Part shown: one piece after another, positions 24,309 to 45,611 of the stretch
Layout: each line of letters starts with the position of its first letter
Position numbering within the stretch: position 1 is the stretch's first letter
Assembly (NCBI GenBank): GCA_049642065.1
Contig: JBAROK010000027.1
Location: 14,398-78,397, forward strand
From: Candidatus Omnitrophota bacterium
GTDB lineage: Bacteria; Omnitrophota; Gorgyraeia; Tantalellales; Tantalellaceae
DNA length: 64,000 nucleotides
Direction: 5' to 3'
Made by a program: the position numbers and the translations under genes
The notes under the pieces: generated by a model
Databases searched by the model: none
Seen by the model: only the letters and a program-made list of their open reading frames with translations
Told to the model about the DNA's origin: nothing

Positions 24309-25727
24309 ATGGAAAAATACTTACCAAAAATAAACAGATCGCCCGTTATTGAAAAGGTTAAACTGACCTCTTCGATAGAATCAGTGTTCGGTTGTTTCTC
24401 GGAACTAGCCGATGCAGCCTTTCTGAACAGTTCGTTAGAAACAGATGCGGGCAGGTATTCTTTCATAGGCATAGATCCCTTTCTTACATTGCGGGGCAAA
24501 GGGAAAGAACTCCAGATGAACTTTAACGGTCATACTTTTCTCTCTAAAGAAGACCCTTTTAAATGTCTTGAATCTATCATTAGAACATACAAGGTAGATA
24601 ACCCTACTTCCCTGCCCTTTATCTCCGGCGGGATCGGGTACCTTTCCTATGACCTTAAGGATGCTATAGAAACCCTTCCGCAAAAAGCAAAAGACGACCT
24701 AAAGTTGCCCGATATTTACTTCGCGTTCTACAGAACGCTCTTTATCCACGATAAAAAGGATCCCGGACATCTATATATATCGATCACTACTGATGGTTCC
24801 GATACTTCACGCTCTATCAGTGAATATAAAAAGATCATAGAGAATATACCTGAAGTGCATAACGCTTTTGAAACGCCTGAATCCTATACTCCCGAACTCC
24901 GGCCGGAAATATCTAAAACGGATTACATGGATTCTGTAAAAAAAGTCCTGGATTATATACGTGCCGGCGATATTTACCAGGTATGCCTGTCACAACGGTT
25001 TCGAGCTGGATGGCCTTTTGCCCCCTACGAGCTATATCGCAAACTTAATGATATCAACCCGGCGCCCTTTAGCGCTTATTTAAATTTTAATGACGGTAAA
25101 ATCATCTCTTCATCGCCTGAAAGATTCCTTCATGTGGCAGATAACATTATTGAAACTCGGCCGATGAAAGGTACGCGACCCAGAAGCGCAGAAGCCGATA
25201 AAGATGCCGCACTGAAGGAACAGCTGCGAACAAGCATTAAGGACGACGCGGAATTATCAATGATAGTGGACCTTGAAAGAAACGATCTGGGCAAGGTTTC
25301 AGTTCCCGGTTCTGTAGAGGTCGTGGAACATAGAAGACTGGAGACCTACCCCACCGTATTCCAGACCATATCCATAGTCAAAGGAACCATCGAAAGAGAT
25401 ACCAGTATGATCGATGTCATCAAAGCGTCCTTCCCGGGCGGTTCTATTACCGGATGCCCCAAAATACGCGCTATGAAAATAATAGACGAACTTGAACCGA
25501 CCACAAGAAGCGCGTATACCGGATCCATAGGATACCTTAGCTTTCATGAGACAATGGACCTCAATATAGCTATACGCACAATGATCATCAAAGAAAATGA
25601 CGTTTATTTCCAGGTAGGTGGCGGTATAGTGGCTGATTCAGATCCCTCGGAAGAATACGAAGAAACTATTCATAAAGCACGTGCGATGATGGAGAGTCTT
25701 AAAGCTTGCGAGATGAGACTTGTTTAG
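24309..25727 (+). CDS. pabB: Aminodeoxychorismate synthase component I (chorismate-binding enzyme; could alternatively be TrpE)
   Basis: Chorismate-binding domain with PGGSITGCPK and SAYTGSIGY motifs. It is translationally coupled to pabA, there are no other trp genes nearby, and folC is present in the window. Confidence 0.7.
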   Translation: MEKYLPKINRSPVIEKVKLTSSIESVFGCFSELADAAFLNSSLETDAGRYSFIGIDPFLTLRGKGKELQMNFNGHTFLSKEDPFKCLESIIRTYKVDNPTSLPFISGGIGYLSYDLKDAIETLPQKAKDDLKLPDIYFAFYRTLFIHDKKDPGHLYISITTDGSDTSRSISEYKKIIENIPEVHNAFETPESYTPELRPEISKTDYMDSVKKVLDYIRAGDIYQVCLSQRFRAGWPFAPYELYRKLNDINPAPFSAYLNFNDGKIISSSPERFLHVADNIIETRPMKGTRPRSAEADKDAALKEQLRTSIKDDAELSMIVDLERNDLGKVSVPGSVEVVEHRRLETYPTVFQTISIVKGTIERDTSMIDVIKASFPGGSITGCPKIRAMKIIDELEPTTRSAYTGSIGYLSFHETMDLNIAIRTMIIKENDVYFQVGGGIVADSDPSEEYEETIHKARAMMESLKACEMRLV

Positions 25728-44700: not shown

Positions 44701-45611
44701 ACAACACCGCCTGCCGCCGTTAACACGGGCGCAGTAAATATCTTCAGCAGATCTTTCATGTCCGGAATGTTTTTCTCATCACGGTTTTTGTTGAAGATAT
44801 GCGCTAAGGTGAATATAGTGCCCAGCACTATCAGAAGACCATAAAAAACCCCCGAATGCAGAAAAGGCGTGCTGTACTCAAGCTTATTAAGAATAGTAAG
44901 TGCTACAACCGGTATTCCAACTTTGAAAAGTTCCTCTAAGATCGGGGCATGAAAGAACGGAGAATAAGTTATGCGTAACTTTTCTCCAATAAAACTCAGG
45001 GAACTGAAACCCGAATCCTCCGGAAGATCCTTTTCTTTACTCTCTTTTGGCTGGCTTGGAATTGTATCGCTTTTCTTTTCTGGCTGGAGTTTTTCTTCCG
45101 TAGCAGTATCTTTATATTCTTCTGCTCTGTCTTGCTGGCCTTTACGGGCAATTATTTGTCTTGAAAGATAATCGCCTATTCTTTTCTCCTCTACTATCCG
45201 GTATCCTTCTTTTGGATCAGAATTTCCAGGTAACTTATGATTGTAATACCTTATCGCGCATGGCCCGAGGTTTATTATTATTTCTCCTGATTCGGGTGAA
45301 CCTTTGATCACAGGAAGATTATCAAGAAATTTATCCGATGCTTTTAATTCTGTGATGGCTTGTTCAACGCATGGTTCAATCCGAAAAAGATTACGGTTAT
45401 CCGGATCGCTCTCGTATCTAGCCAAAAGGCCTGTAAGATACGCGACTGCCGCCGCATGAGCACCGGAAGGATCACTGATCAGGGTTCTGGGCTGAAGATC
45501 ATTACGCCTGAAGATATCCGGAGACGCCCATACCACCCCCTGCCAGAGCATAAGGAGGCTCAACAAGACCGCAATGACCTTAATCATGTGTGTTTTTGAT
45601 AAATGAATCAT
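41730..45611 (-). CDS. Giant secreted/membrane protein (1293 aa), paralogue of the 25724-30760 gene. Modules: signal peptide with the conserved N-terminal module, a multi-TM block, seven or eight tandem ~33-aa FxxFGLD repeats, and the conserved C-terminal ~190-aa module.
   Basis: See the alignment with the 1678-aa protein. The exact start is uncertain (no SD at either candidate ATG, 45611 or 45587). Confidence 0.7.
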   Translation of the reverse strand: MIHLSKTHMIKVIAVLLSLLMLWQGVVWASPDIFRRNDLQPRTLISDPSGAHAAAVAYLTGLLARYESDPDNRNLFRIEPCVEQAITELKASDKFLDNLPVIKGSPESGEIIINLGPCAIRYYNHKLPGNSDPKEGYRIVEEKRIGDYLSRQIIARKGQQDRAEEYKDTATEEKLQPEKKSDTIPSQPKESKEKDLPEDSGFSSLSFIGEKLRITYSPFFHAPILEELFKVGIPVVALTILNKLEYSTPFLHSGVFYGLLIVLGTIFTLAHIFNKNRDEKNIPDMKDLLKIFTAPVLTAAGGVVLAILFAGVPSYAVLLSMGWHLLVNITVYKIRKYGIDAGYASFEGSGEKQAIKEAALDMASKASLIIREYDSIKRALFDEFGIDLQSDEYAHIRVEVALLSAVQAPKKTMAGFKIFNLDSARYADEIKTVALTCSTSLPDSVAKDFENLGFDPVRDEDVILEIAEDCAELDGENTARYFRNFGLRDKQHVINVANLCARQNGLGTAVYFKEFGLDPTKGEEEATVVTGIALLAAEESASGVATNFKNFGFDPQYHIASIFLVAMACASNSGRATALNFRRFGLKDREDIRIIAHTCAQEDLDGTLLYFKSFGLGMDNDEAVEFCRKAEREFIAESASKFPGVPVYHSLGENGEMFLSMVDDVYDDLDLSGLSVGAQAYVKLLLIEEITSKECISDDFTKRMNEEVIPALTVLETLTMDYPTLGLDYYRPSEELLMDDGQDFRFRAKVMNYISRTKTPHELDRSNSRQSGERFIRVPPAPYPILWLLAAKLENLGIADMRDFNITAAGDQMQEALFLFSILYFGSSRPSSLTYSKEVPGKPWIRGGRRGLSIDPWTGKFLNENDPKTKGMQTQFFLVGSNALLKRKLAMTFALVSASSAYKGAYGLEDDGLKKIYSDLKEDIKTFYAERLGIGKANAERLNDIELRELINSYDFNTGLASAALGAIDVRLRDDPNDDDVQRVAKGRLHYEFKELVDGYIDRIMAHMYEGPMAELLDKGLSGDFRDMKQSVLSMCFSDPETTSKALQIAERAYPVEYGKIQEVGKKVKGTRPSGIKGILKNVGEVIGKLVNSLFGFSGKGKKVLIALDLEIGEGEINVLLRDIVEVLPSLEGNNEDLKRFFKDLEIIKGEGRVLAQRVANLTDPDRGSVDPENLIVVTKKDNMSFYSGFEGRATIAGVNDAGFPKTAYLPLLEVVLFAIGKHLGWDRGTLIKYYETIPNVISYEKLAAEDRGMLFGKERASLVIRLIPDAGQFATQELRTIMDNIRTMLARA
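43692..44399 (-). repeat. Tandem ~30-36-aa protein repeats (consensus F-[KR]-x-F-G-[LF]-D-P ...I...A..CA....G..TA.xF), seven or eight copies, in the 1293-aa protein (aa ~380-640)
   Basis: Copies seen: DFENLGFDP, YFRNFGLRD, YFKEFGLDP, NFKNFGFDP, NFRRFGLKD, YFKSFGLGMD and LFDEFGIDL, each followed by a Cys-containing helix-like segment. Confidence 0.6.

What the first reader, a model, noticed from the sequence alone, without database searches (positions are those of the whole stretch)
25724..45611. Locus of three consecutive giant genes: two modular paralogues (1678 and 1293 aa) flank a 3486-aa protein
Nearly 20 kb of this window is taken up by three minus-strand ORFs of 5.0, 10.5 and 3.9 kb. 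Each of the two downstream intergenic gaps (after the 3486-aa and 1293-aa genes) carries a hairpin terminator, so the genes are independent transcription units rather than a single operon. The two outer proteins are clearly paralogous at both ends. The N-terminus has a signal peptide and a ~130-aa module (LWQGVVWA.PD...ESDPDNRNLF...SGE(I/V)II..GPC.IRYYN.K.PG). The C-terminus has a ~190-aa module (K.VLALDLE.GEGEIN.LLR......LP..EGNN.DL.RFFK.LEIIKGEG..LA.RVAN.TDP..G.V.PENLIV.T...N...Y.G.EG.ATIA.V.D..F...AYLPLLE..LFA.GK.L.WD..TL...Y..IPNV.S...L.AED..MLFGK......IRLIP.A..F...ELR..MD.IRTMLARA), and many positions are identical. The central regions are unrelated to each other. Neither end module matches a family I recognise, so this looks like an undescribed modular surface or envelope protein family with swappable centres. 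Giant genes are a known hallmark of some uncultivated nanobacterial lineages such as Omnitrophota, where they are proposed to mediate cell-cell or host interaction. That is the most economical hypothesis here, but it is not demonstrated.
Basis: partly seen in the sequence, partly recalled or inferred. Interest (0 to 1): 0.85.

Follow-up and report, generated by a model that had tools for sequence, protein, structure and literature searches.

The report
Capped modular membrane proteins of Omnitrophota
Three adjacent very large genes of an uncultivated Omnitrophota bacterium belong to two undescribed protein families, each built as a fixed N-terminal domain, an exchangeable middle and a fixed C-terminal domain, and the two outer genes also carry built-in membrane protease modules; this gives a first handle on how this phylum assembles its enigmatic huge proteins, but their function is still inferred, not shown.

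Summary
Three intact minus-strand ORFs (1293, 3486 and 1678 aa) fill 25724-45611. The outer two are paralogous only at their ends (N-terminus 41% identity, E=9e-43; C-terminus 59%, E=8e-81). Both intergenic gaps carry a hairpin followed by a T-run.

The C-terminal module defines a family of 249 clusters. It ends within 5 residues of the protein's C-terminus in 149 of 153 proteins, which range from 0.65 to 5.9 kaa. Every named member is Omnitrophota, and the centres are very diverse.

The middle 3486-aa gene is not a bystander. It belongs to a second, larger family (at least 376 hits) with the same layout: its own N-cap of about 575 aa and its own C-cap of about 240 aa. The two sets of caps never mix (0 of 274 proteins).

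A divergent CPBP/Rce1-like 4-helix intramembrane protease module occurs twice in the 1678-aa protein and once in the 1293-aa protein, with E, H, H and N invariant. A small H-E...H domain is shared by the 1678-aa and 3486-aa proteins.

The trio is syntenic and intact in at least three other assemblies, among housekeeping genes, so it is not a chimera.

Function, and which side of the membrane the proteins face, remain unresolved. I read them as cap-cargo-cap envelope proteins, smaller relatives of the phylum's giant proteins.

The parts
41730..45611 (-). Gene C, 1293 aa (a public gene call starts at Met9, giving 1285 aa). Member of the AC family.
   Evidence: Intact orthologues of 1291 and 1289 aa in L004 and L005.
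45141..45611 (-). C: signal-peptide-like segment (res 1-29, ...LWQGVVWA|S) plus N-cap 'ACn' (res 1-157).
   Evidence: BLASTP against A, E=9e-43. Family HMM 1.1e-56. Hydrophobic segment 9-27.
44619..44963 (-). C: CPBP/Rce1-like 4-helix module (res 217-331) with motifs EELFK, FTLAH and HLLVN.
   Evidence: jackhmmer E=2e-27 seeded from A. E, H, H and N are invariant in a 19-copy alignment. 8 of 19 copies hit PF02517. C itself hits PrsW-protease weakly, E=0.021.
43692..44516 (-). C: repeats of about 33 aa (res ~366-640), including five F[KR]xFG[LF] motifs.
   Evidence: Self-BLAST 451-517 against 550-616, 43% identity, E=3e-14.
41733..42401 (-). C: C-cap 'ACc' (res 1071-1293).
   Evidence: BLASTP against A, E=8e-81. 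HMM 5e-81.
41581..41626 (-). Terminator-like hairpin plus U7 run after gene C.
   Evidence: dG -15.8 kcal/mol, z -3.3.
31075..41535 (-). Gene B, 3486 aa. Member of the B family. Identical to P0004 on ENA scaffold ZINK19-1_SAMN08473120_METAG-scaffold_16.
39811..41535 (-). B: signal-peptide-like segment (res ~14-35, ...TDAWA|I) plus N-cap 'Bn' (to about res 575). Invariant residues include H85, Q87, D88, H90, N92, E118, G119, G120, E155, W168, R457, D458, G480, G481, F482 and H483.
   Evidence: All 120 listed homologues cover B residues ~50-500. HMM 3.5e-258. Invariant columns. No Pfam or PDB sequence match.
38098..38364 (-). B: cyclic-nucleotide-binding domain (res 1058-1146). The phosphate-binding cassette G-E-I-A-L...R-R-N-A is present.
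   Evidence: PF00027 E=1.6e-10, 41.3 bits against a cut-off of 27.5. PKA and PKG regulatory subunits in the PDB. Motif read.
31933..32121 (-). B: small H-E...H domain ('HEdom', res 3139-3201; FHEMYEMDYSH).
   Evidence: BLASTP A 298-346 against B 3148-3201, E=5e-4. jackhmmer 7.9e-13.
31078..31803 (-). B: C-cap 'Bc' (res 3245-3486).
   Evidence: HMM 1e-66. Present at the extreme C-terminus of 73 of 121 B-family proteins. Not homologous to ACc.
31007..31046 (-). Terminator-like hairpin (11 bp) plus U-run after gene B.
   Evidence: dG -17.6 kcal/mol, z -3.4.
25724..30760 (-). Gene A, 1678 aa. Member of the AC family. Identical to P0277.
   Evidence: Orthologues of 1844 and 1657 aa.
30269..30760 (-). 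A: signal-peptide-like segment (...VWQGVVWA|N) plus N-cap ACn (res 1-164).
29681..30043 (-). A: HEdom (res 240-360; LLGFN...IGLSAQVL...LLHEMICPYFGH...LFPENY...GHRD).
   Evidence: H84 and H93 are invariant and E85 nearly so. Only sub-threshold SprT-like and PhageMetallopep hits.
28715..28993 (-). A: first bundle of four hydrophobic helices (res ~590-682).
27116..27604 (-). A: CPBP/Rce1-like module copy 1 (res 1053-1215; EERVF, FVVLH, HENIN).
26618..27094 (-). A: CPBP/Rce1-like module copy 2 (res 1223-1381), 50-56% identical to copy 1.
25727..26416 (-). A: C-cap ACc (res 1449-1678). Predicted alpha/beta three-layer sandwich with five parallel strands.

Best explanation
SHOWN
- The locus encodes three members of two Omnitrophota-restricted families of large modular proteins. 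Each family has the plan: N-terminal signal-like hydrophobic segment, family-specific N-cap, highly variable centre, family-specific C-cap.
- A and C (AC family) are polytopic membrane proteins.
- Their variable part contains one (C) or two (A) copies of a divergent CPBP/Rce1-type four-helix intramembrane protease module. The four catalytic-motif residues are invariant.
- A also carries a small H-E...H domain.
- B (B family) has a single N-terminal hydrophobic segment, a ~575-aa N-cap with enzyme-like invariant His, Asp and Glu residues, a cyclic-nucleotide-binding domain, the same small H-E...H domain, and its own C-cap.

INFERRED
- The caps are the constant parts that every family member needs. 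The N-cap would serve Sec-dependent insertion or export and anchoring. The C-cap, an alpha/beta domain at the very end of the chain, would serve docking or assembly with a common partner or with the cognate N-cap.
- The centre is exchangeable cargo: enzymes, sensors and repeat scaffolds.
- The embedded CPBP modules, and possibly the H-E...H domain, cut the protein itself or neighbouring family members such as B. That would release or mature the cargo at the membrane.
- Functionally these are smaller, family-defined relatives of the multi-enzyme, membrane-anchored giant proteins of this phylum.
- I favour an extracytoplasmic destination (periplasm, cell surface or prey contact) for B and for the soluble parts of A and C, but only weakly.
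For: Family structure
- The ACc profile finds 249 clusters at E<=1e-3, 152 of them at E<=1e-10.
- ACc ends within 5 aa of the C-terminus in 149 of 153 proteins. ACn starts within 10 aa of the N-terminus in 70 of 79.
- The B family has at least 376 hits. All 120 listed share B residues ~50-500, and 73 of 121 carry Bc at the extreme C-terminus.
- The caps never mix: 0 of 274 proteins. They are not homologous between families (hhalign probability 3.9% or less).
- ACn and ACc identities co-vary across 79 proteins (Spearman 0.51; 0 of 300 permutations reach this).

Exchangeable centres
- Of 185 protein pairs with ACc identity of 40% or more, 102 have under 10% of the centre alignable. A and C themselves show 61% and 46% cap identity and 0% centre coverage.
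- Centres of 32 members carry iPGM, methyltransferases, HTH, TPR, PAS, HATPase, GH130 and HD domains, each in only 1-2 members.
- B-family centres carry kinases, PPDK, metallophosphatases, M48+ABC1, HEAT/TPR, GNAT and radical SAM domains.

CPBP module
- jackhmmer finds it in 24 proteins of both families, 1-3 copies each.
- E35, H76, H150 and N154 are invariant and F72 is nearly so, matching EExxxR, FxxxH and HxxxN.
- 8 of 19 copies hit PF02517, best E=4.8e-4.

Real, old, chromosomal genes
- The C-B-A order, the flanking genes and the full-length ORFs are conserved in GCA_014728045.1 and an ENA scaffold. Identity runs at 22-94% per 100-aa block.
- The trio also appears in the WBD00 MAG.
- Caps cluster by orthologue type rather than by genome.
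- GC content is uniform. All neighbours are housekeeping genes.

Export signal
- Both families start with a K/R-rich n-region, a hydrophobic core and a V/A-W-A site.
- One B paralogue is annotated as carrying a TAT signal.
- A and C have even numbers of helices after the signal-like segment.
- The literature puts 39% of Omnitrophota proteins of 10 kaa or more in an 'SP+TM' class and 9% in an 'SP-only' class.
Against: - No experiment, and no transcript or peptide data.
- A and C themselves do not reach any Pfam threshold for CPBP. The link is transitive. Motif 1 lacks the Arg in A (EERVFT) and has Lys in C.
- Proteolytic self-processing is untested.
- Topology conflicts with an extracytoplasmic location. 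K+R counts around every helix bundle favour cytoplasmic flanks.
- The cNMP-binding domain of B and the HTH, PAS-HATPase, kinase, SAM and acetyl-CoA dependent domains of paralogues are typical cytoplasmic modules.
- AC and B genes are not generally adjacent. Four distant B loci have no AC gene within 10 kb. A specific A/C-B partnership is therefore supported only by this conserved locus and by L007 and L008.
- No secretion-system genes lie nearby.
Confidence: 0.5

Rival explanations
1. Cytoplasm-facing membrane-tethered hubs. The hydrophobic N-terminus and helix bundles only tether the proteins to the inner membrane. The caps, centres and CPBP active sites all face the cytoplasm, where the variable centres act as ordinary regulatory or metabolic enzymes. 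The caps would be housekeeping assembly or regulatory domains.
For: - K+R counts favour cytoplasmic flanks for all helix bundles of A and C.
- B has a cNMP-binding domain with an intact phosphate-binding cassette.
- Paralogue centres carry HTH, PAS-HATPase, iPGM, SAM methyltransferases, kinases, radical SAM and GNAT domains.
- The genes sit among housekeeping genes with no secretion genes nearby.
- From my own knowledge: the eukaryotic and archaeal Rce1 active site faces the cytosol.
- West-Roberts et al. themselves doubt the extracellular predictions for glycolytic domains of giant proteins.
Against: - The K/R-rich n-region followed by a hydrophobic core and an A-x-A-like site is the standard N-in signal. 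It is conserved across both families.
- B has no second hydrophobic segment to bring its bulk back inside.
- One paralogue is annotated with a TAT signal.
- With an even number of helices, ACn and ACc must be on the same side as whatever follows the signal-like segment.
Confidence: 0.3
2. One reading: surface or adhesion proteins that mediate cell-cell or host attachment, like the giant Omnitrophota ORFs proposed as adhesins.
For: - The phylum is inferred to be host-dependent or predatory, and its giant ORFs are proposed to act in attachment.
- Signal-like N-termini are present.
- C contains helical repeats.
Against: - No adhesin-type domain (discoidin, laminin_G, dockerin, TSP3, beta-helix) in A, B or C, or among 32 scanned AC members.
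- A and C are multi-pass membrane proteins with protease-type modules.
- Family centres are enzymes and sensors.
- There are no T2SS or T4P neighbours, unlike the published giant-gene loci.
Confidence: 0.1
3. MARTX-like effector platform. The caps form or engage a translocation device. The centre is an array of effectors active in prey cytoplasm, and the built-in proteases release them after delivery.
For: - The layout resembles constant ends plus mosaic centre plus an internal protease.
- Nucleotide- and cofactor-dependent centre domains sit behind export signals, which would make sense in a prey cytoplasm.
- The sizes of 1.3-6 kaa are comparable.
Against: - No glycine-rich RTX repeats, no cysteine protease domain, and no T1SS genes or C-terminal T1SS signal.
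- The caps are globular domains, not repeats.
- Housekeeping-type centres such as iPGM and HTH make odd effectors.
- There is no evidence of delivery.
Confidence: 0.1

Closest known systems
Omnitrophota giant multi-enzyme membrane proteins ('Archaeovorins', West-Roberts et al. 2023 bioRxiv 10.1101/2023.11.21.568195; 'multi-enzyme' class of Nielsen & Lui 2026 bioRxiv 10.64898/2026.06.07.730766)
   Same: - Same phylum.
- Signal peptide and/or many TM helices.
- Centres made of methyltransferase, HATPase, PPDK, kinase, GNAT, radical-SAM, HEAT/TPR and sugar-metabolism domains.
- Embedded peptidase domains proposed to cut the polypeptide.
- The same unresolved inside/outside puzzle.
   Different: - These proteins are 10-100 times smaller (1.3-3.5 kaa against more than 10-30 kaa).
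- No SecA-DEAD, C39 or S8 domains were found.
- No T2SS, T4P or glycoside-hydrolase neighbours.
- They are defined by conserved terminal cap domains and CPBP modules, which neither paper mentions.
CPBP / Rce1-like intramembrane proteases (Pfam PF02517; CAAX proteases and bacteriocin-processing enzymes; clan relative PrsW)
   Same: A four-helix hydrophobic core with E-E-x-x-x-[R/K], F-x-x-x-H and H-x-x-x-N in the expected order and spacing. The E, H, H and N residues are invariant. There are weak but repeated PF02517 hits and a weak PrsW hit for C.
   Different: - The module is embedded once to three times inside proteins of 1-6 kaa, instead of forming a free-standing protein of 200-300 aa.
- A and C score below every Pfam threshold.
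- The motif-1 Arg is replaced by Thr in A and by Lys in C.
MARTX toxins and other mosaic-effector proteins (from my own knowledge)
   Same: Conserved ends, a swappable central array, an internal protease, and a size of several thousand residues.
   Different: MARTX ends are glycine-rich repeats, export is by T1SS without an N-terminal signal peptide, and the protease is an InsP6-activated cysteine protease. None of these features was found here.
Sorting-domain cargo systems (T9SS C-terminal domain, autotransporter beta-barrel, PEP-CTERM/LPXTG), from my own knowledge
   Same: An N-terminal signal peptide combined with a conserved C-terminal module on otherwise unrelated proteins.
   Different: ACc is a ~210-aa alpha/beta sandwich. 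It is not a beta-sandwich, a beta-barrel, or a short TM-plus-basic tail. No cognate sorting machinery was identified.

Membership tests
CPBP / Rce1-like (PF02517) | Motif 1 E-E-x-x-x-R at the start of the first core helix. | tested here: inconclusive
   The first Glu is invariant in 19 copies and the second is nearly so. The final position is R in B-family copies, K in C (EELFK) and T in A (EERVFT).
CPBP / Rce1-like (PF02517) | Motif 2 F-x-x-x-H and motif 3 H-x-x-x-N/D in later core helices. | tested here: met
   H76, H150 and N154 are invariant and F72 is at least 90% conserved. A has FVVLH/HENIN and FVAMH/HENVN. C has FTLAH/HLLVN.
CPBP / Rce1-like (PF02517) | Significant match to the family profile. 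| tested here: inconclusive
   8 of 19 module copies hit PF02517, best E=4.8e-4. The copies in A and C do not hit it themselves. They are linked by jackhmmer (E=2e-27 for C). There is no PDB sequence hit.
CPBP / Rce1-like (PF02517) | Proteolytic activity. | not testable with these tools
   Needs biochemistry.
Cyclic-nucleotide-binding domain (PF00027), gene B | Profile match above the gathering score, with the phosphate-binding cassette G-E-x-A...R-x-A. | tested here: met
   41.3 bits against a cut-off of 27.5, E=1.6e-10. PKA and PKG regulatory subunits are hit in the PDB. GEIALIHKTRRNA read.
Archaeovorin-type giant proteins | Length above about 30,000 aa, numerous TM helices, SecA-DEAD-like domains, and GT, GH, MTase and NUDIX content. 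| tested here: not met
   Lengths are 1293-3486 aa. No SecA, GT, GH or NUDIX hit in A, B or C. Definition taken.
Autotransporter / T9SS-CTD type C-terminal sorting domains | A C-terminal beta-barrel (T5SS) or a ~80-100-aa beta-sandwich (T9SS). | tested here: not met
   The ACc model is alpha/beta with five strands alternating with helices, pLDDT 82.8. No such Pfam hit.
Response-regulator receiver / flavodoxin-like fold (for ACc) | CheY-like (beta-alpha)5 fold with an acidic pocket (DD, D, T/S, K). | tested here: inconclusive
Tiki/TraB/ChaN/erythromycin-esterase superfamily (for Bn; lead from memory) | A pair of G-x-x-H motifs plus conserved Glu and Arg; profile match. | tested here: inconclusive
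   Bn has invariant HIQDAH, NLEGG, R457-D458 and GGFH. No TraB, ChaN or Ere Pfam hit in 11 members at E<=10, and no PDB hit.
Zincin-like metallopeptidase (for HEdom) | An H-E-x-x-H zinc site on a helix plus a third ligand. | tested here: inconclusive
   The motif is H-E-x-x-C-x-x-x-x-H in A and most AC-family copies and H-E-x-x-E...H in most B-family copies. H84 and H93 are invariant and E85 nearly so. Only sub-threshold SprT-like (E=0.11) and PhageMetallopep (E=0.12) hits. No PDB hit.

The most novel reading that the evidence does not exclude
The cap domains are the recognition and assembly parts of a phylum-specific system. In this reading the system exports large polypeptides carrying cytoplasm-type enzymes and sensors. 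It anchors them through built-in helix bundles and then cuts them with their own CPBP and H-E...H protease modules. Omnitrophota would thereby place an 'externalised' enzyme repertoire on their surface or inside prey. The strict pairing of N- and C-caps would reflect a physical N-C clasp or a shared, family-specific receptor.
Probability: 0.12. Interest if true: 0.85.

Novelty: new variant of a known kind. Interest (0 to 1): 0.58.

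Why it matters
Omnitrophota devote a striking share of small genomes to very large, mostly unannotated proteins. Published analyses found them 'sequence-unique' because clustering required 80% coverage.

Hundreds of these proteins turn out to share small, strictly terminal, family-specific cap domains, plus recurring CPBP-type and H-E...H modules. That gives three things:
- a way to classify them;
- compact domains of 130-575 aa that can be expressed, modelled and localised, unlike the whole proteins;
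- concrete tests of where the proteins sit, whether they are processed, and what recognises them.

The locus here is a convenient entry point. It is compact, conserved and single-copy, and contains both families.

Tried and rejected
1. B's C-terminus as a distant copy of ACc. A MAFFT alignment looked suggestive at 17% identity, but hhalign gave probability 0.1-0.5%. Rejected.
2. Homology of ACn with Bn. hhalign gave 3.9% over the signal region only. Rejected. A short L-x-[VP]-x-[TS]-[FIL] motif after the signal-like segment is enriched in B (44% against 0.1% in shuffled sequences) but weak in AC (9%). I left this as a lead.
3. Chimeric proteins mixing AC and B caps. None among 274 proteins.
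4. Concerted evolution between the caps of A and C. Caps group by orthologue (0.83 against 0.61). Rejected.
5. A conserved disulfide in ACn as evidence of export. The cysteines are not conserved. Rejected.
6. General AC-B gene adjacency. It is absent from four distant B loci. Rejected as a general rule.
8. The first AF2 model, made with 5 sequences, was unusable (pLDDT 52).
9. A word-indexed search with the 22-sequence alignment found only 3 proteins. The exhaustive profile search was what revealed the family.
10. Rfam and tRNA scans of the window found nothing.
11. NCBIfam gave only sub-threshold cNMP-domain echoes.
12. A crude hydropathy and positive-inside analysis could not settle topology.

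Full report
**The observation**

The window contains three consecutive minus-strand ORFs, transcribed in the order C, B, A:
- C, 41730-45611, 1293 aa
- B, 31075-41535, 3486 aa
- A, 25724-30760, 1678 aa

BLASTP of A against C gives two strong local matches and nothing else. The C-terminal 229 aa are 59% identical (E=8e-81). The N-terminal ~200 aa are 41% identical (E=9e-43).

Both intergenic gaps contain a stable hairpin followed by a U-run:
- C-B gap: stem 41626-41595, dG -15.8 kcal/mol, z=-3.3 against shuffles, followed by U7.
- B-A gap: 11-bp stem 31046-31017, dG -17.6 kcal/mol, z=-3.4.

Promoter-like hexamers lie upstream of each gene. However, the region as a whole has no more of them than shuffled sequence (36 against 35.6). 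Separate transcription is therefore plausible but not shown.

Pfam and NCBIfam recognise only a cyclic-nucleotide-binding domain in B, at residues 1058-1146 (41.3 bits against a cut-off of 27.5). PDB sequences confirm that domain and nothing else.

**Organism, context and reality of the genes**

B is identical to a protein on an 84.7-kb ENA metagenome scaffold. All named homologues of A, B and C are from Candidatus Omnitrophota/Omnitrophica. The exceptions are two contigs labelled 'uncultured Planctomycetia'.

The genes sit among housekeeping genes, with no secretion-system or mobile-element genes:
- on one side: trpE/pabB-like, GATase, LytB and polyprenyl synthase;
- on the other: radical-SAM/B12, PAP2, SLOG and a hydrolase;
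- further out: Mur ligase, PurH, UvrD, glycogen phosphorylase and an oxidative-stress cluster.

GC content is uniform.

The same C-B-A order, with the same neighbours and uninterrupted ORFs, occurs in GCA_014728045.1 (C 1291, B 3472, A 1844 aa) and in another ENA scaffold (1289, 3640, 1657 aa). Identity runs from 22 to 94% per 100-residue block along the whole length. A further MAG carries consecutive locus tags for the A and C orthologues. Fragments of A orthologues end at contig edges next to the same neighbours. The ORFs are therefore conserved genes, not assembly chimeras.

**The AC family**

A word-indexed search with the C-terminal module found only three partial proteins. An exhaustive profile search of 1.84 billion representatives found 249 clusters at E<=1e-3, 152 of them at E<=1e-10.

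I built local HMMs from these hits. They show three things:
- The C-terminal module (ACc) ends within 5 residues of the protein end in 149 of 153 proteins.
- 79 proteins also carry the N-terminal module (ACn), which starts within 10 residues of Met1 in 70 of them.
- These 79 range from 657 to 5873 aa, median 1467.

Many of the remaining proteins are fragments. Others carry a more divergent N-cap (signal-like segment plus 'L.VQS.F.P...IRD.GIIKYYL.CL').

The centres really are exchangeable. Among 185 protein pairs whose ACc domains are at least 40% identical, 102 have less than 10% of the centre alignable. A Pfam scan of 32 full-length members found iPGM, several methyltransferases, HTH, TPR, PAS, HATPase_c, GH130, glucosamine-6-P isomerase-like and HD domains, each in only one or two members.

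ACn and ACc identities co-vary (Spearman 0.51; 0 of 300 permutations reach this). Within the conserved locus the caps cluster by orthologue type (A-A 0.83 against A-C 0.61). The A/C duplication is therefore old, and the caps are not being homogenised.

**The B family**

B is not simply flanked by the paralogues. At least 376 proteins match it. All 120 listed share B residues ~50-500, and 73 of 121 also share its last ~240 residues, always at the extreme C-terminus.

Between these caps the relatives carry protein kinases, PPDK/PEP-utilising domains, metallophosphatases, HATPase, M48+ABC1, HEAT/TPR, GNAT, radical SAM, HD and methyltransferase domains.

The N-cap (Bn) is the best-conserved part of B among orthologues, at up to 94%. 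An 11-sequence alignment of 42-50% identical paralogues has invariant H85, Q87, D88, H90, N92, E118, G119, G120, E155, W168, R457, D458 and G480-H483. That pattern looks like an active site. No Pfam or PDB sequence relative was found. My recollection that strand-x-x-H ... LEG ... GGFH resembles the Tiki/TraB/ChaN superfamily is a lead only.

AC caps and B caps are not detectably homologous. They never occur in mixed pairs (0 of 274).

The first is a tandem duplication in A. Residues 1053-1212 and 1223-1382 are 50-56% identical. Iterative search from one copy recovers C residues 217-331 (E=2e-27) and 24 proteins from both families, with one to three copies each.

In a 19-copy alignment the only invariant residues are one Glu, two His and one Asn. 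A Phe is nearly invariant. They sit in the pattern E-E-x-x-F-[R/K/T] ... F-x-x-x-H ... H-x-x-x-N on four hydrophobic helices. From my own knowledge, that is the signature of CPBP/Rce1-type intramembrane proteases.

Eight of the 19 copies hit Pfam PF02517, best E=4.8e-4. C's copy weakly hits the clan relative PrsW, E=0.021. The copies in A and C do not reach any threshold on their own, and motif 1 lacks the Arg. I therefore call them divergent CPBP-like modules with the catalytic residues retained. I do not call them proven proteases.

The second is a ~110-aa domain, 'LLGFN...(I)GLSxxVL...EYxxHExxCPxxGH...LFPENY...GH+D'. It occurs in A (240-360) and, in shortened form, in B (3139-3201). BLASTP of A against B gives E=5e-4, and jackhmmer finds 26 proteins from both families. 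Two His are invariant and the Glu nearly so. Only sub-threshold zincin-family echoes were seen (SprT-like E=0.11, PhageMetallopep E=0.12), and no PDB match. A metal-binding or peptidase role is conjecture.

**Structure of the C-cap**

With five sequences AlphaFold2 failed (pLDDT 52). With a 22-sequence alignment it gave pLDDT 82.8 and pTM 0.81. The model is a three-layer alpha/beta sandwich of five strands alternating with helices.

**Topology: the unresolved point**

All three proteins, and their families, begin with a K/R-rich stretch, a hydrophobic core and a V/A-W-A site. That is a Sec-type signal. One B paralogue is annotated with a TAT signal. B has no other hydrophobic segment. A has three four-helix bundles (4+4+4) and C has one after the signal-like segment. 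This even number would place both caps and the centre on the side reached by the N-terminus.

Two lines of evidence point the other way:
- K+R counts around every bundle favour cytoplasmic flanks.
- The cNMP-binding domain of B has the G-E-x-A...R cassette, and the centres of paralogues are typical cytoplasmic modules.

The same contradiction is reported for the phylum's giant proteins. I could not run a dedicated topology predictor.

**Interpretation**

What is shown:
- Two phylum-restricted families have a cap-centre-cap plan.
- The centres are exchangeable.
- Cap pairing is strict.
- A and C are embedded in the membrane.
- CPBP-like modules with intact motif residues recur in both families.
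- The chromosomal locus is old and conserved.

What is inferred:
- The caps provide the constant functions: insertion or export at the N-end, and docking or assembly at the C-end.
- The centres are cargo.
- The built-in protease-type modules process the proteins or their neighbours.

I weakly favour an extracytoplasmic destination. The main rival is a cytoplasm-facing, membrane-tethered hub. A pure adhesin role has no direct support, because no adhesin domains were found. A MARTX-like effector platform is an attractive analogy but fails every membership feature.

AC and B genes are adjacent in this conserved locus and in two other loci. They are not adjacent at four distant B-family loci. A dedicated A/C-B partnership is therefore possible here but is not a general rule.

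**Comparison with what is known, and novelty**

Large and giant multi-domain membrane proteins are a published hallmark of Omnitrophota, with similar domain content and proposed self-cleavage by embedded peptidases. Those studies treat proteins of 10 kaa or more and found them largely sequence-unique. They do not mention terminal cap domains, CPBP modules or these families. Pfam, NCBIfam and the PDB have no entries for ACn, ACc, Bn, Bc or HEdom.

I therefore rate this a new variant of a known kind. It is a moderately interesting and tractable classification handle. It is not a demonstrated new mechanism.

Noticed in passing
window 54941-59450 (-): A run of oxidative-stress genes: a pyridine-nucleotide disulphide oxidoreductase, rubrerythrin, an ODP/metallo-beta-lactamase plus flavodoxin (flavodiiron-like) protein, and ferritin. 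This is typical of an anaerobe.
   Followed up: no
window 9864-15958: A carbohydrate cluster: glycogen/carbohydrate phosphorylase (818 aa), a GH130 mannoside phosphorylase-like protein, an unannotated 359-aa ORF and a GT4 glycosyltransferase. GH130 also turns up as a centre domain in one AC-family paralogue.
   Followed up: no
window 16389-17951 (-): A 520-aa protein with a C-terminal SpoIIE/PP2C phosphatase domain and an unannotated N-terminal 320 aa.
   Followed up: no
window 45587-45611: The start of gene C is ambiguous. The ORF starts at Met1 (MIHLSKTHMIKV...), but a public gene call uses Met9, giving 1285 aa.
   Followed up: partly
window 43692-44516 (C residues ~366-640): Helical repeats of about 33 aa, with the motif F[KR]xFG[LF] five times. 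No Pfam match.
   Followed up: partly
L019 16825-22083: An Omnitrophota SMC gene interrupted by an intein (Intein_splicing plus a LAGLIDADG homing endonuclease), directly downstream of a B-family gene.
   Followed up: no
L018 2216-9154 and 22774-28985: One B-family gene (3560 aa, annotated with a TAT signal) sits in a mobile or defence-rich neighbourhood with a Y1 transposase, AbiEi/AbiEii modules, an integrase and a serine recombinase. This contrasts with the housekeeping context of the window.
   Followed up: no
L020 2850-15889: Two B-family genes in tandem (2332 and 1975 aa). The first has Aldo_ket_red and B12-binding hits.
   Followed up: no
P0218 / P0262 (NCBI MFH1846043.1 / MFH1846044.1): Two adjacent AC-family paralogues that carry a divergent N-cap ('L.VQS.F.P...IRD.GIIKYYL.CL') which my ACn HMM does not detect. 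The N-cap is thus more variable than the C-cap.
   Followed up: partly
L007 and L015: Contigs carrying clear AC-family genes (and, in L007, a B-family gene) are deposited as 'uncultured Planctomycetia'. Either they are mislabelled MAGs or the family extends beyond Omnitrophota.
   Followed up: no
A residues 38-44, C residues 38-44, B residues 57-63 (window about 30629-30649, 45480-45500, 41347-41367): Both families have a short L-x-[VP]-x-[TS]-[FIL] motif shortly after the signal-like segment (LQPQTF, LQPRTL, LDVETF). A strict pattern occurs in 44% of B-family N-termini against 0.1% of shuffled sequences, but in only 9% of AC N-termini.
   Followed up: partly
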